Virus record (IMG/VR): IMGVR_UViG_3300025000_000064
Coordinates: 32,001-96,000 of that record
Length of the DNA: 64,000 nucleotides
Reading direction: 5' to 3' (one strand)
Source of the DNA: a virus
Shown: positions 17,873-57,417 of the stretch, in pieces
How positions within the stretch are numbered: the first letter of the stretch is position 1
How the letters are laid out: each line of letters starts with the position of its first letter
The notes under the pieces: generated by a model
What the model was told of the DNA's origin: nothing
What the model saw: the letters and a program-made list of their open reading frames with translations, nothing else
Database searches by the model: none
Position numbers and translations under genes: made by a program

Positions 17873-17899
17873 AAAAGAGCCTATTGACTAGGCTCTTTT
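17873..17899 (+). terminator. intrinsic terminator (potentially bidirectional)
   Basis: AAAAGAGCCTA-TTGAC-TAGGCTCTTTT. Confidence 0.8.
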
Positions 17900-19481: not shown

Positions 19482-19501
19482 AAGCCCTCTTTCGAGGGCT
19501 T
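19482..19501. terminator. terminator between convergent genes
   Basis: AAGCCCTC-TTTC-GAGGGCTT. Confidence 0.8.
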
Positions 19502-40204: not shown

Positions 40205-41062
40205 TTATTCCTTTATATAAAATAAATCTGCTTCATTATTTATATCTAATATAAATTCTTTTGTTTTGCTTATTATATTTTCATATATTTCTTTATGTTG
40301 TTTGGCATCGTTTATTAAATTAGCATCTCTGTCTGGATGATTGCCATGCTTGTTATTTCCGTAATCTATAACATTAAACTGCAATGAGCAATTTCCACAT
40401 TTCCAATATCTCAAATCTATTCCCTTGTATCTATCTCCGAATGTTTTTATTTTAAAATCATCTTCAACTAATCTTTTACCGCAAGAAGGACAAAATAATT
40501 CAGTCTCGTCACAATAATTATACTGTGCAACTTCTGATACAAAGTCAATTAAATCTTTTTTATTATTAATCTCTTCCAGTTCTTTAGATAAATTTTTTAT
40601 TGTTAATAAATCCTTTTCTCTCGCTTCCCCTAACTGTGTTCTATTTATTTTCTCTAACTTATAAATTTTATTATATAAATCATTTTTAGAATCAACATCA
40701 TTTACTTTTTTATATGAAAGCTCAATCAAATTTTTAATACATTGTTCTTTTTGCCATAAAAAATAAGCAAATTCTTTACTAAATACTTCTTTAACAATAA
40801 ATTCATTTGTAGCAAACACTGGAGCTTTACAACAACAGCCATCTTCAACAACGTCTCCAATTGTTTCTATTAAGGCTATTTCGTATTCTCTGTCCTTATA
40901 TACAGATTGTTTCCAATACCACATGCCATCAGTTATAGTCTGATATAACTTAAAGCCCACACCGTATATAGTTGGGTCATCATATAGTTTAACATGTTCT
41001 CCCAATTCATACTTAATGCCATTATCTATCAGTCCTTTTCTAAATATTTTGTAACCTATCAT
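40205..41062 (-). CDS. hypothetical protein with C-terminal zinc ribbon
   Basis: GYKIF...YELG N-terminus; CPSCG...CGNC. Confidence 0.65.
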   Translation of the reverse strand: MIGYKIFRKGLIDNGIKYELGEHVKLYDDPTIYGVGFKLYQTITDGMWYWKQSVYKDREYEIALIETIGDVVEDGCCCKAPVFATNEFIVKEVFSKEFAYFLWQKEQCIKNLIELSYKKVNDVDSKNDLYNKIYKLEKINRTQLGEAREKDLLTIKNLSKELEEINNKKDLIDFVSEVAQYNYCDETELFCPSCGKRLVEDDFKIKTFGDRYKGIDLRYWKCGNCSLQFNVIDYGNNKHGNHPDRDANLINDAKQHKEIYENIISKTKEFILDINNEADLFYIKE

Positions 41063-41089
41063 TTTATTATCCTTAATTTCTATATAAAT

Positions 41090-41118
41090 ATATTAAACGA
41101 TAAAATAACATCTGTCAA
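41090..41118 (-). promoter_or_regulatory. sigma70/sigmaA-type promoter
   Basis: TTGACA-N17-TAATAT. Confidence 0.6.
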
Positions 41119-41130
41119 TATATAATAAAA

Positions 41131-41148
41131 AGATGTCTTTCGACATCT
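41131..41148 (-). terminator. intrinsic terminator closing the candidate large ncRNA
   Basis: AGATGTC-GAAA-GACATCT followed by TTTT on the minus strand. Confidence 0.8.
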
Positions 41149-41149
41149 C

Positions 41150-41682
41150 TTACAAAGGAGCAATTATTTATTATAAACAACCAATAAATAATAAATTATA
41201 AAACATAGACAAGGTTTATTTTTTACTTGCAAGCTTTCACCATACAGCCATTTACCATTATTCAGACACATACTAGGTTAATTGTACTTTTTAACCCTTA
41301 ACATATGAAGAGATTGGTTACTCTTAGCTTTCACATCCAATATCATATTTTATATAGCCGTTATTTTCAAGCGACATTTGCTACTCGCACTCCGTACATA
41401 GTCTTTCGTATCTGATATTAACCAGATACCAATCGCAGTTTATCACGTTTCTTTGTTCAAATGTATCCTCACTTCACTAAGGTAACATAAAAATTCAGAT
41501 AGCTTACACAAGACTTACAGATTCCTTATGGTTTTATAGTTACTTACAGTTATTAACAATTCGTCTTTGACAAAACTATGAAGGGCATTCCAACCCTCTT
41601 ATTAATACACTTTTGAGAACTTGGCATTCTCTTCAGTCACTATATTTTACAATTTATTATTTAATTATCATGGTTCGATTAT
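41150..41682 (-). ncRNA. candidate large structured ncRNA (~530-550 nt)
   Basis: no ORF of 60 aa or more on either strand, visibly higher GC, many hairpins and long-range pairings, own promoter and terminator. Confidence 0.6.
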
Positions 41683-41688
41683 ATTTTT

Positions 41689-41717
41689 ATTATGTATTAT
41701 AACATCTTACTTGTCAA
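41689..41717 (-). promoter_or_regulatory. sigma70/sigmaA-type promoter for the candidate ncRNA
   Basis: TTGACA-N17-CATAAT, with an overlapping TG-N-TATAAT. Confidence 0.7.
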
Positions 41718-41756
41718 GTAGTGAATTATTTTTTTAATTATCGCATTTGTTATTGA

Positions 41757-42089
41757 CTATAATTTATATATGTTTTCTTTGTTTAATGCGCTTTTATACA
41801 CAGATATAATTTCTCTAAACCCACTGCATGTGAATTCTAAAGACTCGCTATATACAATATTGTTAACACACATTCCAACTATTGATAAACAGTCAAAATT
41901 ATCTGGGTCTATAAGCTTTACCCTAATGTCTATTAATGGGCTAATATAACTGAAGCAACTTTCCCTTTCGGATATTTTTATATTAGCAAATTTAGTAAGT
42001 AAATATTTTAATAAAAAATATATATATCCATCTTGGTTTTTGTCTATCAGAACACATAAAGAAAACCTATTGTTTTTCATAATAATCAT
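41757..42089 (-). CDS. hypothetical protein, MII-type N-terminus (MIIMKNN)
   Basis: 110-aa ORF; N-terminus matches MIIMKN of 15352-15609. Confidence 0.65.
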   Translation of the reverse strand: MIIMKNNRFSLCVLIDKNQDGYIYFLLKYLLTKFANIKISERESCFSYISPLIDIRVKLIDPDNFDCLSIVGMCVNNIVYSESLEFTCSGFREIISVYKSALNKENIYKL

Positions 42090-42239: not shown

Positions 42240-42818
42240 TTAATACTCCACACCTCGCCTACTTTTTACTCCGATATCTATATAATGCTTTATAGGGTTC
42301 ATTCCTGTTATCAGATGGGCAACTTCAAATAATTTTTCTCTTATCTCTGGTCTACCTATTCTTCCAGTCATTACCACTTCTAACCTTTTTGGTTTATTTT
42401 TTAGAAAATCTAAAACTTGGTCAATGTGTATTGTGTCCAAATCTAAAGCTATGTTTATTTCATCTAATACTATCATGTCATACTCTTTGGCATTATGTAT
42501 GATGTAGAACCATCCCTTTTGTGCCTCCAATTTGTCTTCGTCTGTTAAGTTGGCTTTATATACAACTTTATCAAATCCACAATTTTTATATTTTAAATTT
42601 TTTCTTATATTGTCCTTTAATGAATTTAAAGCGTTATATTCTCCGTACTTGCACCTATCTCCTCCTTTGCAGAACTGCATGATAAGAACTTTCCACCCAG
42701 AACCTAAAGCCCTTAAAGCCAAACCCATAGATGCAGTAGTCTTTCCCTTCCCTTCTGATGTGTATATTTGTATATATCCAGTTTTTCTAAACTTTGGATT
42801 TTGCAATTCTTCTGTCAT
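42240..42818 (-). CDS. cobO: cob(I)alamin adenosyltransferase (CobO/BtuR)
   Basis: GYIQIYTSEGKGKTTASMGLALRA.G.G, QFCKG, LDEINIAL, EVVMTGR, GVEY. Confidence 0.9.
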   Translation of the reverse strand: MTEELQNPKFRKTGYIQIYTSEGKGKTTASMGLALRALGSGWKVLIMQFCKGGDRCKYGEYNALNSLKDNIRKNLKYKNCGFDKVVYKANLTDEDKLEAQKGWFYIIHNAKEYDMIVLDEINIALDLDTIHIDQVLDFLKNKPKRLEVVMTGRIGRPEIREKLFEVAHLITGMNPIKHYIDIGVKSRRGVEY

Positions 42819-43735: not shown

Positions 43736-44431
43736 TTAATCATCATATGCCTCCATTTCTTTTTTAATTTTATCTAAGATTTTATCTCTTTTTGAATAAA
43801 TAGCTTTCTTTGAAATATTTAATTTTGAAACCAAATCATCAATAGATAGTCTTTTGTTATTGAACAATCCATAATAATCTATCAAAAATTCTTTATCAAA
43901 AACATTTATGTTGGACAAATCAAATATTTTTATTATATCTAAATTAATATCTACATCGGAAAATGATTTGTCATTATATAATGTTGTAGCCCCTTTTGTT
44001 ACAATTGACTTTTTATTTTTCTTATTCTCCTCATTTTCACGCACAAGATAATTCTTATTGTTATCAAATTTATCTCTTACTTCTCCAACGAGCAAGTTAT
44101 TATTATAGAATTTATCTTCCGCTAAAAAAAATCTTGTTGAATAATAATTTATATTATTTTTTAAATATGTTGAGAATTTCATTTTTTTGGAATATTTAAA
44201 GTTCTCAACACTTTTCATAAAGGTTATCATACAATGAGATTGAACATCTTCAAAATCTATAAGATTGTTTTTGTTTTTGCAAATAACGTTAGCCTCTTTG
44301 TTTATTAAACCAATCACCTTGTAAAGTATTTTGTTTAAGGTTTCCTTGTCTTTTTTCTCTTGATATAGCAAAACTAAATCTTCTGTGTCTTCTCTGACAT
44401 CTTTAAACTTACTAACTATGTTGTTATACAT
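43736..44431 (-). CDS. phage RNA polymerase sigma factor (sigma70 family)
   Basis: region 2-like DFEDVQS...FMKSVENF...KFSTY; region 4 HTH YYGL...SIDDLVSKLNISKKAI. Confidence 0.8.
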   Translation of the reverse strand: MYNNIVSKFKDVREDTEDLVLLYQEKKDKETLNKILYKVIGLINKEANVICKNKNNLIDFEDVQSHCMITFMKSVENFKYSKKMKFSTYLKNNINYYSTRFFLAEDKFYNNNLLVGEVRDKFDNNKNYLVRENEENKKNKKSIVTKGATTLYNDKSFSDVDINLDIIKIFDLSNINVFDKEFLIDYYGLFNNKRLSIDDLVSKLNISKKAIYSKRDKILDKIKKEMEAYDD

Positions 44432-47400
44432 GTCTTCTCAATTCCCGCATAATACATTTCTTTATTAACATATTTCTTATCATCAACCCAACAGGTTGAC
44501 TGCATTATTTTAGTTTTGCCATCTTTCTTTCTTTTTAAAGCAGTGATATATTTTATTTCCTTGTTATTATTGTAGCATTCGTTACTGCAATTTGTCAAGA
44601 TGTTTGATAATTTTTTAACATCTGTATTATCATCAATATCGAAATATATTATTTCTGGGTCATTTATAAAGGACAATATGGATATATTTTCTCCAGCATA
44701 ATCATAATTACCAAAGTTTTTATTATAAGCATCCAATACCTTTAGCTTTATAATGCATAATTTATTTTTATTTACCTTTCTTCCATTTATTTTTTCCCAC
44801 ATCCAAGGTGCAAATTTAACAGTTATTGACTCTCCTAAAAATTCTATTTCGACTCTAGCAGCTCCTTTTTCTGTAACATCTTTACTTCTTATCAACCCTA
44901 TAACATTAATATATTGTTCATTATTTTTATATTGCTCTGCAATATCATCATTCTTTAAATCTGCAATTGGAACTGTGTCAAAATATTTTTCATATGTAGA
45001 AAATAATATCATTGGATTATTTGAAACAGAGAATCCCAATAGTTCTTCTTCAAAATCTTTATATTCTTCAGAAGTAAAATCTTCACCATAATCGTTATTC
45101 AGGGTTAAAGAATTAAGTTCCTCTTTTATTATTCCTTCCAATTCCAATTTAAGATTAGCTTTTTTTTCTTTGTCTTCTTTCTTTGTGCTTTTTATTTCTT
45201 TTACCCTTGCTTCTATTTCTTTATATTCTTCTAATGATTTAGCTTTAGATATTGCTATTGTTTCCAACACAGCATCTTTTAATGTTGTTTTACCTTCTTT
45301 GTATCTCGATAAAGTTTTAGCCTTTTGAATGAACTCCACATAGCTTAATAGCATTTTAGAATTAGATTCAATTGATTTAAGAGAACCTGTTTTTATTAAA
45401 CCTTCTAATGCGGTCTTATTAACAGAAGAACACCTTTCTATCAAGTCCCAAAAACTTTTATATTCTCCATTGTTTTTTCTCTCTTCTAAAAGCTTATTCA
45501 AAGCACTCTCTCCAATGCCTTTAATTGCAGCCAACCCAAATACAATATTATTATCATTATTTATTTCAAATAAATTCGTAGATACATTAATATCTGGTGG
45601 CAATACTTTTAAACCAATTCTAAAGCTTTCCGATATATATTGTTTTATCTTATCAGAACTTCCAATTTCATGATTCAATAAACATCTCATATATTCAACT
45701 GAATGATTAGCTTTTAAATATGCTGTTCTGTAAGCCAAGATAGCATAAGCAAGACTATGAGATTTATTAAAAGCATATTGTCCGAATCCTTCAATATTAT
45801 TATATAAGCCTATTGCAAAACTCTCATCAATATTGTTGTTTATGCAACCATCAACAAATATTTTTCTATGCTCGTCAATAATTTCTTTCTTCTTTTTGCC
45901 GATACCTTTTCTTAATTCATCAGCTTGAGACATTGTGTACCCCGCAAGCACTACTGCTAAACGCATTACTTGTTCTTGATAAATCATAGTTCCATATGTA
46001 TCAGACAATACATCTTCTATTTGAGGGTATCTATATTTTATGTTTTCTGAATTATGTTTATTGTTAATATAGTCCTCAATTGCTCCACACTGAATAGGAC
46101 CAGGTCGATATAATGCTATAACAGCGTCTAAATGCTTTAATTCTGAAGGATTAAGAGATTTAAGTAACCCTTGCATTCCATTGCTTTCTAATTGAAACAC
46201 GCCAGAAGAAAATCCCTGAGATAACATATTATACGTTTTTTTATCATCATATTCTATGTTGTCAAAACTTACTTCTGTTTCTTGTCTTGCTTTTATTAAA
46301 TCAGTTGTATTTTTTATAATTGTCAAGTTTTTTAAGCCCAATATATCATATTTTACCAATCCAACTTTCTCAGCATTATCCATAGAATAAGCAGTTGCTA
46401 TTGTTCCCTCTTTTGTTCTAACCAAAGGGCAAATATCTGAAATATCTCTATCTGAAATCATATATCCACTAGCATGACAGCCTGAGTTTTGTATTCTTCC
46501 TTCTATTTTTTTAGCCATATCTATTATGTTTGCTATTTCTTCATCGTTGTCATATAGTATCTTGAAAGCAGGACTATCCTCTAATTCACTATCTATTGTA
46601 GAATCTGGCTTGCCACTCATAGCCTTTGTTATTTCATTGGCTTTCTTAAAATCTAAACCATAAGTGCTTGCAACTGATTTGACAGCAGCTTTAGCCTTTA
46701 ATTCTCCAAAGGTAATGATTCCAGCAACAGAATATTTTCCATATTTTTCTTTTAAATATTCTATTATTTCTCCTCTTCTTTCAATACATATATCTGAGTC
46801 GATGTCTGGAATGCCTATCCTGTCTGGGTTTAAGAACCTTTCAAATGGCAAATTATATTTTATAGGGTCAATTTCTGTGATTCCTAATAAGTAACAAACA
46901 ATACTTGCACCAGCAGAACCTCTCCCTGGACCAGTTGGAATTCCTTGTTTTCTTGCCCAATTTGTGTAATCTTGAACTATCAAAAAATATCCCTCAAAAT
47001 TCATTTGAGAAATAATAGATATTTCATAATTTATTCTACTAAAAACTTCTGTACTTATATTTGTTTTATAGATTCTTTTTATGCCTTTTAATATTTCATT
47101 TTTAAATATTTCTTTTTCATTGTCTGCAAATTTAGGCATGATTGGTTTTCCAATTTCCAATTCTAAATTGCATTTATCAATTATTTCATAAGTATTATCT
47201 ATACAATTATCTATGAAGTCTTGACCGTATTCTTTATGAGATTCACATATTTCTTCATAACTTTTATAATAGAATTCATTGTTTGAGAATTTAAACCTTT
47301 TCTCGTCAGTTAATTTAGCATTTGTGTTTTTGCATAATAATACATCATGAGTGACAGAATCCTCTTTATTTAAATAATGCACATCGTTTGCGATTATATT

Positions 47401-48084
47401 TTTAATATTATGCTTTTTAGACAACTCTATCAATATTTTATTAATTATTGTTTCTTCTTCTAAGTCATGACTGTGAATTTCTATATAAAAATCATCATTG
47501 AAAATATCTTTATAAAACAATATTAAATTTTCTGCTTTTTCAATATCGTTATTTAATATGGCTTGGTTTATGTCTGACATTATACATGCAGATGTACATA
47601 TTAAATCAGAAGAATATTTTTTTAATACCTCATAGTCGATTCTTGGTTTGTAATAAAAATTTTCCAAATTAGCATACGTTATTAGTTTGCACAGATTTTT
47701 ATAGCCTTTATTGTTTTTAGCATATAAGCATAAATGCCTTCTGTTTTCATGATGTTTTAGCTCTTCTGTTAAGCTTTTTAAATTTGTTTTATCTTCACTT
47801 TCTTGAATTAGTTTCATATTATCTTTTAATTCTTTTATTTTAATTTTTAATTCATCGCCCTTTAAGCTTGATTCGCTAAGATATGCTTCAAATCCTACGA
47901 TTGGTTTGATTTCATTCTTTTTGCATTCATTATAAAACTCTATTGCCCCAGACATGACCATGTGGTCAGAAATAAACAAAGCAGAAAGTTCTCTTTGTTT
48001 GCCAAATGCTACATATTCTTTAATTGTTGCCAATCCATCCAGTACAGAATAGTTGGTATGGACATGGTTATCTATATATTTCAT
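44416..48084 (-). CDS. dnaE: DNA polymerase III alpha subunit
   Basis: PHP HVHTNYSVLDG, GPGRGSAGAS, FERFLNPDR..PDIDSD, HASG, VKYDILGL, GVFQLES, YQEQVM, YAFNKSH. Confidence 0.95.
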   Translation of the reverse strand: MKYIDNHVHTNYSVLDGLATIKEYVAFGKQRELSALFISDHMVMSGAIEFYNECKKNEIKPIVGFEAYLSESSLKGDELKIKIKELKDNMKLIQESEDKTNLKSLTEELKHHENRRHLCLYAKNNKGYKNLCKLITYANLENFYYKPRIDYEVLKKYSSDLICTSACIMSDINQAILNNDIEKAENLILFYKDIFNDDFYIEIHSHDLEEETIINKILIELSKKHNIKNIIANDVHYLNKEDSVTHDVLLCKNTNAKLTDEKRFKFSNNEFYYKSYEEICESHKEYGQDFIDNCIDNTYEIIDKCNLELEIGKPIMPKFADNEKEIFKNEILKGIKRIYKTNISTEVFSRINYEISIISQMNFEGYFLIVQDYTNWARKQGIPTGPGRGSAGASIVCYLLGITEIDPIKYNLPFERFLNPDRIGIPDIDSDICIERRGEIIEYLKEKYGKYSVAGIITFGELKAKAAVKSVASTYGLDFKKANEITKAMSGKPDSTIDSELEDSPAFKILYDNDEEIANIIDMAKKIEGRIQNSGCHASGYMISDRDISDICPLVRTKEGTIATAYSMDNAEKVGLVKYDILGLKNLTIIKNTTDLIKARQETEVSFDNIEYDDKKTYNMLSQGFSSGVFQLESNGMQGLLKSLNPSELKHLDAVIALYRPGPIQCGAIEDYINNKHNSENIKYRYPQIEDVLSDTYGTMIYQEQVMRLAVVLAGYTMSQADELRKGIGKKKKEIIDEHRKIFVDGCINNNIDESFAIGLYNNIEGFGQYAFNKSHSLAYAILAYRTAYLKANHSVEYMRCLLNHEIGSSDKIKQYISESFRIGLKVLPPDINVSTNLFEINNDNNIVFGLAAIKGIGESALNKLLEERKNNGEYKSFWDLIERCSSVNKTALEGLIKTGSLKSIESNSKMLLSYVEFIQKAKTLSRYKEGKTTLKDAVLETIAISKAKSLEEYKEIEARVKEIKSTKKEDKEKKANLKLELEGIIKEELNSLTLNNDYGEDFTSEEYKDFEEELLGFSVSNNPMILFSTYEKYFDTVPIADLKNDDIAEQYKNNEQYINVIGLIRSKDVTEKGAARVEIEFLGESITVKFAPWMWEKINGRKVNKNKLCIIKLKVLDAYNKNFGNYDYAGENISILSFINDPEIIYFDIDDNTDVKKLSNILTNCSNECYNNNKEIKYITALKRKKDGKTKIMQSTCWVDDKKYVNKEMYYAGIEKTCITT

Positions 48085-55996: not shown

Positions 55997-56038
55997 AATT
56001 TACCTCTTTTTTCTAAACTTACTAAACTCGATATATTA

Positions 56039-56067
56039 AACTTACCACTTGGATTTATTTTTGTCAA
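56039..56067 (-). promoter_or_regulatory. sigma70/sigmaA-type promoter
   Basis: TTGACA-N17-TAAGTT with TG. Confidence 0.6.
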
Positions 56068-56127
56068 TATATGTTATTTTCCAGTCATTTGTTATAAAAA
56101 TCTCAACAAAATATATCAACTATTTTT

Positions 56128-56156
56128 AGTATAGCATTATGGTTTTTATTTGTCAA
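56128..56156 (-). promoter_or_regulatory. sigma70/sigmaA-type promoter
   Basis: TTGACA-N17-TATACT with TG. Confidence 0.75.
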
Positions 56157-56230
56157 CATATTAAAAATATCATCAATAAAATAGCCAATAATATATATTA
56201 TACTTATAAGAATTATTCTAAGCGGTTAGT

Positions 56231-56597
56231 CTAATTAGAATAACACTAATTTAGAATAAAATATATAGATTAATACTTAACTTACAACATAACTTAATAC
56301 ATAGAATAATACTTAACTATATTCTTAACTAAATAATAACTTAATATTTAACTATATTCTAATTAACTTACTACATATTAACTTACTTCTATTAACTGAC
56401 TACAATTTAACTTACTTCAATTAACTTATATCTAATTAGAATATTACAATATAACTTAATACATATTAACTAAATACAATAACTTATTACTTAACTTACT
56501 ACTAACTAAATACTTATTAGACTAATATATTAACTTAATACTAATTAGAATAATACTATATAGTATTATATATAAATGTTACCTATACAGGTAACAT
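56231..56597. repeat. AT-rich repeat tract, candidate replication origin
   Basis: 17 TAACT copies (56278-56535), 3 CTAATTAGAAT, a 20-bp palindrome (56550-56569) and a hairpin (56576-56597). Confidence 0.75.
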
Positions 56598-56790
56598 ATA
56601 ATTATAGCATGTTTTTAGAAAAAGTTCCTAAAATTTTATTTATTTTAAAATAATCAAATTAACCCAATCCAAAAATAATTAAAATATGAGAATATTCCAA
56701 GGAGCGTAGCCCTCTTACTTAAAATTAGTAAGGGTTATGGAGGATAGTTGTTGTAACAATTATTAGTATAACAATTTAATTAAATATATA

Positions 56791-56819
56791 TTGACAAAGA
56801 TTATGCGATGATATATACT
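56791..56819 (+). promoter_or_regulatory. sigma70/sigmaA-type promoter
   Basis: TTGACA-N17-TATACT. Confidence 0.8.
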
Positions 56820-56844
56820 TAAAATATAGTGAGTTGAGGTAAAT

Positions 56845-57417
56845 ATGATAATAACAATTGCAGGACCAGTCCATTCAGACAAGACAAGTATAATATGCGA
56901 GAGAATAAACGACTATCTTTGTTCTGGGCATGATGTTAAACTTTTTTATCCAATCTTCTTAGAAAAAGAAGAAAAATATGTTATCAAGGGCAATGATTAT
57001 AAAACAAAGATTATTCCAATATCTGACTTAAAAGATATATTATCTCACATAACAAATTCAAATAAATTAATCATATTTATTGATGAATTTCAATTCTTTG
57101 ATATAAAAAATTCTGATTATATCTTACAGGAATTGAGCGAAAGAGATGTCGAAGTTATAATATCTGGATTGGATATTAATTATTATGGAACAACATTTGC
57201 AAATATGGAATTGGCTTTATCCTATTCTGACAAAGTTATAAAATTGAAAAATAACTGTGAAATATGTTCTTCAACAGAAGGCAGAAGAAGCATAAAATAT
57301 GTTGATGGCAAGCCCCAATTTGATGGAGATTTAATATCTTTGGAATCTGATAATGTTTCGTATATTTGTGCATGCAAAAGATGCTTTTATGAGAAATTAA
57401 ATGATGAACAAATATAA
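56845..57417 (+). CDS. tdk: thymidine kinase (TK1 type, degenerate P-loop)
   Basis: GPVHSDKTS, FIDEFQF, SGLD, CEIC...Y...CKRCF. Confidence 0.85.
   Translation: MIITIAGPVHSDKTSIICERINDYLCSGHDVKLFYPIFLEKEEKYVIKGNDYKTKIIPISDLKDILSHITNSNKLIIFIDEFQFFDIKNSDYILQELSERDVEVIISGLDINYYGTTFANMELALSYSDKVIKLKNNCEICSSTEGRRSIKYVDGKPQFDGDLISLESDNVSYICACKRCFYEKLNDEQI

What the first reader, a model, noticed from the sequence alone, without database searches (positions are those of the whole stretch)
41131..41717. Candidate ~550-nt structured non-coding RNA with its own promoter and terminator
Seen (minus strand): TTGACA-N17-CATAAT at 41717-41689, a GAAA-loop terminator at 41148-41131, and no ORF of 60 aa or more between them in an otherwise tightly packed genome. 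GC is visibly higher than the flanks. Hairpins include GAGAA-N7-UUCUC, GAGGG-N8-CCCUU, GUAUCUG-N8-CAGAUAC, AUGUUACCUUA/UGAGGAUACAU and GGUUAA-N9-UUAACC. Possible long-range pairs are UGAAGAGA (41635-41628) with UCUCUUCA (41313-41306), and AGUCUU with AAGACU. GUGAAAGCU occurs twice. Established: large ornate RNAs such as ROOL and GOLLD occur in phages, and ROOL is of similar length. I see no tmRNA, RNase P or intron hallmarks. Inference: a ROOL-like or new large phage RNA.
Basis: partly seen in the sequence, partly recalled or inferred. Interest (0 to 1): 0.8.

Follow-up and report, generated by a model that had tools for sequence, protein, structure and literature searches.

The report
Orphan phage noncoding RNA candidate
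A gene-free 690-base stretch of an uncultured 124-kb phage looks like a self-contained unit for a roughly 560-base non-coding RNA whose two ends pair in a long helix, but it matches no known RNA family, has no relatives to compare with, and its interior folds no better than random sequence, so it remains an untested candidate.

Summary
There is a near-consensus promoter (41717-41689, minus strand), a GAAA-loop terminator (41151-41128), and no coding signal in any of the six frames between them. The GC content of this stretch is unusually high for non-coding DNA of this phage.

A 24-bp helix (41663-41640 with 41208-41185) joins the two ends of the predicted transcript. It is the only inverted repeat of that quality in the 123.6-kb genome. 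Its two imperfections are G·U pairs only on the minus-strand RNA.

The "ornate structure" claim is weak. The 431-nt core folds no better than dinucleotide shuffles (z about -1). The 8-nt long-range pair and the repeated 9-mer are at chance level.

No Rfam family matches, including ROOL and GOLLD. The genome has no tRNA genes.

No homologue turned up in any phage, viral, metagenome, genome or plasmid collection I could search. The phage lineage is isolated: its next polymerase relative is 46% identical. Covariation therefore cannot be tested.

This scan has reported architecturally similar large phage RNAs in other genomes, but none that resembles this sequence.

Verdict: a plausible orphan non-coding RNA unit that is not ROOL and is unproven.

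The parts
41689..41717 (-). Sigma-70-type promoter TTGACA-N17-CATAAT. An overlapping extended -10 (TGTTATAAT) lies at 41704-41696. The predicted start is near 41682-41689.
   Evidence: 11 of 12 matches; one of 13 intergenic sites with at least 11 of 12 matches; the genome has 29 such sites against 13.9 +/- 3.2 in shuffles. The extended -10 was read.
41671..41683 (-). Outer 5' extension of the closing helix (UAUAA, C, AACCA), pairing with 41172-41183.
   Evidence: pair probabilities 0.67-0.77.
41640..41663 (-). 5' arm of the 24-bp closing helix.
   Evidence: I3; p=0.97; 0.01 matches expected by chance; the only such inverted repeat in the genome.
41209..41639 (-). 431-nt GC-enriched non-coding core. 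Confident local hairpins lie at 41631-41615, 41598-41581, 41488-41461, 41429-41408 and 41297-41275.
   Evidence: As a whole, its fold is no better than shuffles.
41185..41208 (-). 3' arm of the 24-bp closing helix: 22 Watson-Crick pairs and 2 G.U pairs on the minus-strand RNA.
   Evidence: The pairing was read base by base. The plus-strand fold shows the helix interrupted.
41172..41183 (-). Outer 3' extension of the closing helix.
41128..41151 (-). Intrinsic terminator hairpin with a 10-bp stem and a GAAA loop, followed by a U-run.
   Evidence: (p=0.98; such hairpins are rare: about 18 distinct in 123.6 kb).
41090..41118 (-). Context: the next promoter-like site, TTGACA-N17-TAATAT, which serves the downstream DUF7666 gene (40205-41062).
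   Evidence: (10 of 12 matches).

Best explanation
An independent non-coding transcription unit of an isolated, low-GC, 124-kb phage.

Inferred mechanism:
- The host's primary-sigma RNA polymerase starts at the near-consensus promoter, around 41682-41689, and stops at the GAAA-loop terminator around 41124. This gives a minus-strand RNA of about 560 nt.
- The first and last bases before the terminator pair in a helix of 24 bp, about 35 bp with its interrupted extensions. This helix encloses a 431-nt GC-enriched core.
- A helix of this kind would either shield both ends from exonucleases or serve as a double-strand RNase (RNase III) processing stalk, in the way the stalks flanking ribosomal RNA precursors do. 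Processing would release a stable RNA of about 440-480 nt.
- The core would then act through bound partners or its tertiary shape, as a scaffold or decoy, rather than as an antisense regulator.

What is shown: the sequence signals, the absence of coding signal, the uniqueness of the helix and the GC enrichment.

What is inferred: transcription, the transcript ends, processing and any function.
For: - The promoter matches 11 of 12 positions. Such sites are twofold enriched over shuffles, and 13 of 29 lie in the 10% of the genome that is non-coding.
- The terminator has a 10-bp stem, a GAAA loop and a T-run. Long-stem terminator hairpins are rare in this genome.
- The order of elements is gene stop, promoter, 560 nt, terminator, next promoter, next gene. 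That is the order expected of a separate unit, not of a plain intergenic spacer.
- There is no ORF over 38 aa and coding log-odds are negative in all six frames. No translated similarity to the phage's own or related DNA was found.
- The 24-bp helix is the only inverted repeat with at most 2 mismatches, 50-700 nt apart, in 123.6 kb. About 0.01 would be expected by chance in the window.
- Both imperfections in the helix are G.U pairs on the minus-strand RNA and A.C mismatches on the plus strand.
- The helix starts within a few bases of the predicted transcript start and ends 20 nt before the terminator.
- Core GC of 0.334 is the highest of any internal non-coding stretch; the non-coding mean is 0.226-0.242. 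In AT-rich genomes, raised GC in non-coding DNA is an established indicator of structural RNA genes.
Against: - The core alone has an MFE z-score of -1.0, and 18 of 100 shuffles fold at least as well. Its positional entropy, number of confident pairs and ensemble diversity are within 1 sd of shuffles.
- Against native windows of this genome the whole unit is only 1.5 sd better.
- No homologue exists in any collection searched, so there is no covariation or conservation evidence.
- No terminator separates the upstream gene from the unit, so the region could simply be read through as a 3' untranslated tail.
- Two G.U pairs falling on the sense strand has about a 1 in 4 chance.
Confidence: 0.45

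Rival explanations
1. Non-functional spacer: either the long untranslated tail of the upstream operon, or the eroded remains of an inserted promoter-gene-terminator cassette (a 'moron') whose reading frame has decayed. On this reading the long inverted repeat has no RNA-level role.
For: The core folds like shuffled sequence. There are no homologues or conservation data. The genome has five other gaps over 500 nt. No terminator follows the upstream gene. The neighbouring genes are lineage-specific orphans, which suggests a fast-turnover region.
Against: There is no residual coding signal in any frame and no translated similarity to anything held. GC is well above the level of other non-coding DNA in this phage, which neutral decay in a 28% GC genome should erode. 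A unique 24-bp helix placed exactly between the transcript start and the terminator is hard to get by chance.
Confidence: 0.25
2. Cis-acting RNA element rather than a stand-alone RNA. One version is a long leader with an attenuator controlling the downstream DUF7666 gene. The other is an RNase III processing stalk that cuts a read-through operon transcript.
For: The terminator lies 66 nt upstream of the DUF7666 start codon. A helix of 24 bp reaches the length that RNase III is known to need (established knowledge). Read-through from upstream genes is possible because no terminator precedes the unit.
Against: No riboswitch, T-box or leader family matches. 560 nt is far longer than known leaders. 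A separate promoter-like site lies between the terminator and the gene. No alternative pairing that would disrupt the terminator stands out in the fold.
Confidence: 0.13
3. A DNA-level element bounded by terminal inverted repeats: a miniature transposable element or an invertible segment.
For: A 479-bp segment is bounded by 24-bp inverted repeats matching at 22 of 24 positions.
Against: There is a single copy in the genome. There is no clear target-site duplication; the flanks are only low-complexity A/T. The phage has no serine or tyrosine recombinase. The strong promoter and the terminator lie outside the repeats, so inversion would switch nothing. Both mismatches are G.U on the transcribed strand.
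Confidence: 0.08
4. A divergent member of ROOL, GOLLD or another catalogued large RNA family.
For: Its length of about 560 nt is close to the 574 positions of the ROOL model, and it sits in a phage, as ROOL and GOLLD do (PMC12286853).
Against: No Rfam family reaches its gathering score. At E up to 10 on the locus alone, only two noise hits to unrelated small families appear. The ROOL model finds nothing in the whole genome. The genome has no tRNA genes. The core is not unusually stable.
Confidence: 0.02
5. A replication origin or primer-transcript region of the replication module.
For: The unit lies among replication genes: the DnaE-type polymerase at 44416-48084 and phosphoesterases.
Against: There are no iterons or tandem repeats here. 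The cumulative GC-skew minimum and the 14-nt repeat arrays lie at genome position 88,000-88,850, which is window 56,000-56,850. The skew runs smoothly through this locus.
Confidence: 0.03

Closest known systems
ROOL RNA (Rfam RF03087)
   Same: A phage-borne, promoter-to-terminator non-coding unit of similar length: about 560 nt against a 574-position model. ROOL is encoded in phages and prophages and has no known protein partner (PMC12286853).
   Different: There is no covariance-model match, even at E up to 10. There is no neighbouring tRNA island, since the genome has no tRNA genes. No evidence exists for the many pseudoknots and kissing loops that define ROOL. The interior is not more stable than shuffled sequence.
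GOLLD RNA (Rfam RF01998)
   Same: A large non-coding RNA of phages and prophages with unknown function (PMC12286853).
   Different: GOLLD often exceeds 800 nt and lies near tRNA islands (PMC12286853). There is no model match here and there are no tRNAs.
RNase III processing stalks that flank ribosomal RNA precursors and phage early transcripts (established knowledge)
   Same: A long, nearly perfect helix forms between sequences several hundred nucleotides apart and encloses the RNA to be released. At 24 bp it is long enough for RNase III.
   Different: The enclosed RNA is not ribosomal or any other known RNA. No cleavage has been shown. The phage has no RNase III gene of its own, so the host enzyme would be needed.
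Other uncatalogued large phage RNAs closed by a long helix, reported earlier in this scan (e1-5665167, e1-5524974; AI notes, unchecked)
   Same: The architecture is the same: an ORF-free gap in a large uncultured phage, with its own promoter and terminator and a long-range closing helix of about 22-24 bp.
   Different: No sequence look-alike of this locus is on file. Those cases had related phages with compensatory changes, and this one has none available.

Membership tests
ROOL (RF03087) | A match to the family covariance model at or above its gathering score of 99.1 bits. | tested here: not met
   Searches gave no match, even at E up to 10.
ROOL (RF03087) | Usual location near tRNA islands in phages or prophages (PMC12286853). 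| tested here: not met
   ARAGORN found 0 tRNA genes in the window and in the whole 123.6-kb genome.
ROOL (RF03087) | A conserved multi-pseudoknot secondary structure supported by covariation. | not testable with these tools
   No homologues could be retrieved.
GOLLD (RF01998) | A match to the family covariance model; a length often above 800 nt. | tested here: not met
   Searches gave no match. The unit is about 560 nt.
Other catalogued RNAs (group I/II introns, RNase P, tmRNA, 6S, OLE, HEARO, raiA, riboswitches, T-box) | A match to any of the 4227 Rfam 15 models. | tested here: not met
   (gathering score, whole window) found none. One search (E up to 10, locus only) gave only tpke11 at 15 bits and CLRN1-AS1 at 11 bits, both far below their cut-offs.
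Independent bacterial-type RNA gene (generic) | Its own promoter, an intrinsic terminator and no coding capacity. | tested here: met
   for the signals and their rarity; for the lack of coding signal.
Independent bacterial-type RNA gene (generic) | A discrete transcript is observed. | not testable with these tools
Structured RNA (generic) | A fold more stable or better defined than dinucleotide shuffles. | tested here: inconclusive
   The whole unit gives z=-3.96. The core gives z=-1.0 and about -1 on entropy and diversity. Against native genome windows, z=-1.5.
Miniature inverted-repeat transposable element | Terminal inverted repeats, a target-site duplication and multiple copies. | tested here: not met
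   Inverted repeats are present. The element is single-copy and no clear duplication flanks it.
Invertible DNA segment | Flanking inverted repeats, a site-specific recombinase and a switched promoter inside the segment. | tested here: not met
   No resolvase or integrase family gene is in the genome. The strong promoter lies outside the repeats.

The most novel reading that the evidence does not exclude
The unit encodes the founding, so far single-lineage, member of a new class of large phage RNA. It would be a stable RNA of about 450-560 nt, clamped or excised by a 24-35-bp terminal helix, made early by host polymerase, and acting as a scaffold or decoy during infection.
Probability: 0.35. 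Interest if true: 0.55.

Novelty: new variant of a known kind. Interest (0 to 1): 0.3.

Why it matters
Large non-coding RNAs of phages such as ROOL and GOLLD form striking RNA-only cages, yet their function is still unknown (PMC12286853). Each further, unrelated large phage RNA widens the set in which that function can be sought. This scan has already flagged several similarly built RNAs in other large phages.

If this locus is real, it would show that even an isolated phage lineage without tRNA islands carries such a unit. Here it sits in the early/replication module, next to a phage sigma factor and a corrinoid adenosyltransferase.

As it stands, the locus has no homologues, no expression data and an interior that folds like random sequence. 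Its present value is as a well-delimited candidate for a Northern blot or RNA-seq check, not as a discovery.

Tried and rejected
Homologue searches, all empty:
- blastn against 50,697 phage records and 72,556 plasmids.
- nhmmer and blastn against 45 loci around polymerase relatives, and BLAST over the five nearest whole viral records (only 14-40-nt noise).
- Exact 19-23-mers from the core in viral contigs and in genome contigs.
- A 20-mer in metagenome contigs. The single hit, L047, shares 24 nt that lie at the 3' end of an unrelated leucine-rich-repeat ORF in DNA of about 50% GC, with no further similarity. I judged it chance.

Synteny route, also empty:
- The flanking 285-aa, 110-aa and 192-aa proteins found no relatives in viral contigs.
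- The 285-aa protein has only copies at 99% identity or more among 5.8 billion proteins.
- The polymerase's next relative is 46% identical.

Ideas rejected:
- Recoded ORFs under TGA=W or TAG=Q.
- A decayed paralogue of the downstream gene: local alignment scored 20 against 17.9 +/- 2.5 in shuffles.
- Small-protein genes: no ribosome-binding site before the 35-aa ORF, and coding scores are negative.
- An antisense regulator of phage genes: the longest complementarity elsewhere in the genome is 15 nt.
- A tRNA-like core, a lead from note e1-3279162: no tRNA model match at E up to 10 and nothing from ARAGORN.
- A cobalamin riboswitch, suggested by the nearby CobO gene: no Rfam match.
- A replication origin.

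Full report
SETTING

The window is bases 32001-96000 of a 123,605-base IMG/VR virus record that CheckV rates 100% complete. The record has 28% GC. Most genes lie on the minus strand: 143 of the 181 ORFs I kept.

The finding sits in an early/replication-type neighbourhood. Upstream on the minus strand are:
- a DnaE-type DNA polymerase (44416-48084);
- a sigma-70-region-2 protein (43736-44431);
- small orphan genes;
- an ATP:corrinoid adenosyltransferase of the CobO/BtuR family (42240-42818, Pfam E=3.7e-50);
- two small ORFs, of which the 110-aa one ends at 41757.

Downstream are a 285-aa DUF7666 protein with a zinc-ribbon-like C-terminus (40205-41062) and two metallophosphoesterases.

CHECKING THE OBSERVATION

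- The promoter TTGACA-N17-CATAAT (41717-41689) scores 11 of 12, and the terminator at 41151-41128 has a 10-bp stem, a GAAA loop and a T-run. An overlapping extended -10 (TGTTATAAT, 41704-41696) is also visible.
- No ORF exceeds 38 aa. Reading TGA or TAG as sense opens nothing.
- A codon-usage log-odds profile trained on the phage's long genes is positive in one frame over each flanking gene. It is negative in all six frames across 41080-41760.
- Translated fragments match nothing in the phage's own genome or in 45 related loci.

The stretch is therefore truly non-coding.

The signals are more than decoration.
- Sites matching at least 11 of 12 promoter positions number 29 in the genome, against 13.9 +/- 3.2 in shuffles. 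Thirteen of them lie in the 10% of the genome that is non-coding.
- Terminator-like hairpins with stems of 8 bp or more number about 18 distinct sites in 123.6 kb, several times the shuffled count.
- The order here is gene stop, promoter, 560 nt, terminator, a second promoter-like site (41118-41090), next gene. That is the layout of a separate unit, not the usual stop-terminator-promoter spacer.
- Core GC of 0.334 exceeds both the coding average (0.285) and the non-coding average (0.242). It is the highest of any internal non-coding stretch.

Bases 41663-41640 pair with 41208-41185 over 24 consecutive positions (pair probability 0.97). Interrupted extensions carry the pairing out to 41683 and 41172.
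- A scan of the whole genome for 24-nt inverted repeats with at most two mismatches, 50-700 nt apart, returns this pair and no other.
- Shuffles of the window give 0.01 such matches.
- Read base by base, the helix has 22 Watson-Crick pairs and two G.U pairs on the minus-strand RNA. On the plus strand the same two positions are A.C mismatches, and the plus-strand fold shows the helix broken there.
- The helix begins at the predicted transcript start and ends 20 nt before the terminator. It therefore clamps the two ends of the predicted RNA around a 431-nt core.

- The whole unit folds at -124.7 kcal/mol, z=-3.96 against dinucleotide shuffles. The core alone gives z=-1.0, with 18 of 100 shuffles folding at least as well.
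- The core's positional entropy, number of confidently paired bases and ensemble diversity all lie within one standard deviation of shuffles.
- I folded 411 native 560-nt windows of the same strand and regressed energy on composition. The unit is only 1.5 sd better than expected. Native phage sequence folds somewhat better than shuffles everywhere.
- The stability signal is thus the closing helix plus the terminator, not an ornate interior.
- The 8-nt long-range pair and the twice-occurring GUGAAAGCU are each expected about once by chance in 560 nt.
- The genome is not uniformly packed. Five other gaps exceed 500 nt.

KNOWN FAMILIES

Rfam 15 gives nothing at gathering score over the whole window. 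At E up to 10 on the locus alone, with lax filters, it gives only two noise hits to unrelated small families. The ROOL model finds nothing anywhere in the genome. ARAGORN finds no tRNA or tmRNA in the window or the genome. ROOL and GOLLD are typically near tRNA islands (PMC12286853). Membership of ROOL, GOLLD or any other catalogued family is therefore tested and not met.

HOMOLOGUES

This is the decisive gap in the evidence. Nothing similar exists in:
- GenBank phages or plasmids;
- the 45 viral loci that share the polymerase at 24-38% identity;
- the five nearest whole viral records;
- exact-word scans of viral contigs and genome contigs.

The exact-word scan of metagenome contigs gave one hit. 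It is a 24-nt identity inside the end of an unrelated ORF in GC-rich DNA, which I take as chance.

The adjacent 285-aa protein has only relatives at 99% identity or more among 5.8 billion proteins. The polymerase's next relative is 46% identical. The lineage is isolated, although it has been sampled repeatedly as near-identical contigs.

Neither covariation nor expression could be tested.

RIVAL EXPLANATIONS

- Replication origin: unlikely. The cumulative GC-skew minimum (genome position 88,718) and the arrays of 14-nt repeats lie in another gap.
- Invertible or transposable DNA element: disfavoured. The element is single-copy. The phage has no serine or tyrosine recombinase. The promoter and terminator lie outside the repeats. 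The mismatches are oriented as G.U on the transcribed strand.
- Antisense regulator of phage genes: no target; the longest complementarity elsewhere is 15 nt.
- Decayed copy of the downstream gene: not supported.
- Non-functional spacer or read-through tail: this remains the main rival. The interior shows no structural signal and no terminator precedes the unit. It explains the raised GC and the unique, exactly placed helix poorly.
- Cis-acting leader or processing site: possible but unsupported by any family match.

MOST LIKELY MECHANISM (inference)

Host polymerase transcribes a minus-strand RNA of about 560 nt from 41682-41689 to about 41124. Its ends pair into a helix of 24-35 bp. That helix either protects both ends or is cut by host RNase III, since the phage has none of its own. 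Cutting would release a stable core of about 440-480 nt, which then acts as a scaffold or decoy. I put this at 0.45. A ROOL-type ornate, self-assembling RNA is a small fraction of that.

EARLIER NOTES OF THIS SCAN

- The same stretch was read a second time as a 'self-contained ~480-nt' RNA (e1-5968485). That length matches the helix-bounded segment.
- Other windows hold architecturally similar large phage RNAs with long closing helices that follow-up agents judged real (for example e1-5665167 and e1-5524974).
- No sequence look-alike of this locus is on file. These are unchecked AI notes. They raised my prior slightly, and one of them (e1-3279162) prompted the negative tRNA-like-core check.

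VERDICT

The locus is a cleanly delimited, plausible orphan non-coding RNA unit. Interest is modest until a transcript or a relative is found.

Noticed in passing
window 56346-56597 (genome 88346-88597) and genome 26057-26444 (outside the window, at window -5943 to -5556): There are two arrays of 14-15-nt repeats of the ATTAACTTACTAC type, about 62 kb apart. Each is followed by the same palindromic hairpin, ATGTTACCT(A/G)TATAGGTAACAT. The array inside the window coincides with the genome's cumulative GC-skew minimum (genome position 88,718) and with a switch in gene direction. It is a likely replication origin or iteron region, and it appears to be duplicated.
   Followed up: partly
window 42240-42818 (minus strand): The phage encodes a full-length ATP:corrinoid adenosyltransferase of the CobO/BtuR family (Pfam PF02572, E=3.7e-50). 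This is an unusual auxiliary gene in a replication-module neighbourhood. No cobalamin riboswitch was found nearby.
   Followed up: no
window 43736-44431 (minus strand): A 231-aa protein with sigma-70 region 2 (PF04542, E=8e-6) lies directly downstream of the polymerase gene. It is probably a phage-encoded sigma factor for later transcription.
   Followed up: no
window 44416-48084 (minus strand): The DnaE-type DNA polymerase III alpha of 1222 aa has, apart from copies at 99% identity, a best relative at only 46% identity among 5.8 billion proteins. The phage lineage is very isolated.
   Followed up: partly
window 40205-41062 (minus strand): The 285-aa DUF7666 protein has a C-terminal CxxC...CxxC motif. 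The window's copy differs from the commonest public variant by one residue (V for G at position 209). One JGI contig carries the gene split into pieces of 209 and 69 aa.
   Followed up: partly
L047 301-324, compared with window 41398-41375: A 24-nt exact identity links the candidate RNA to the last codons (CTECE, then stop) of an unrelated leucine-rich-repeat ORF on a metagenome contig of about 50% GC. There is no similarity beyond those 24 nt, so I judged it chance.
   Followed up: yes
window 17873-17899 and genome 30305-30331 (window -1695 to -1669): Nearly the same terminator-type hairpin, AAAAGAGCCTA...TAGGCTCTTTT, occurs twice in the genome on opposite strands. A further GAAA-loop hairpin, AAGCCCTCGAAAGAGGGCTT, lies at window 19482-19501.
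   Followed up: no
genome 25779-28184 (outside the window): This is the largest ORF-free gap of the genome, at 2.4 kb and 22% GC. Its 560-nt windows are the most stably folding in the genome, 3-4 sd beyond the composition-based expectation. Much of this comes from the repeat arrays.
   Followed up: partly
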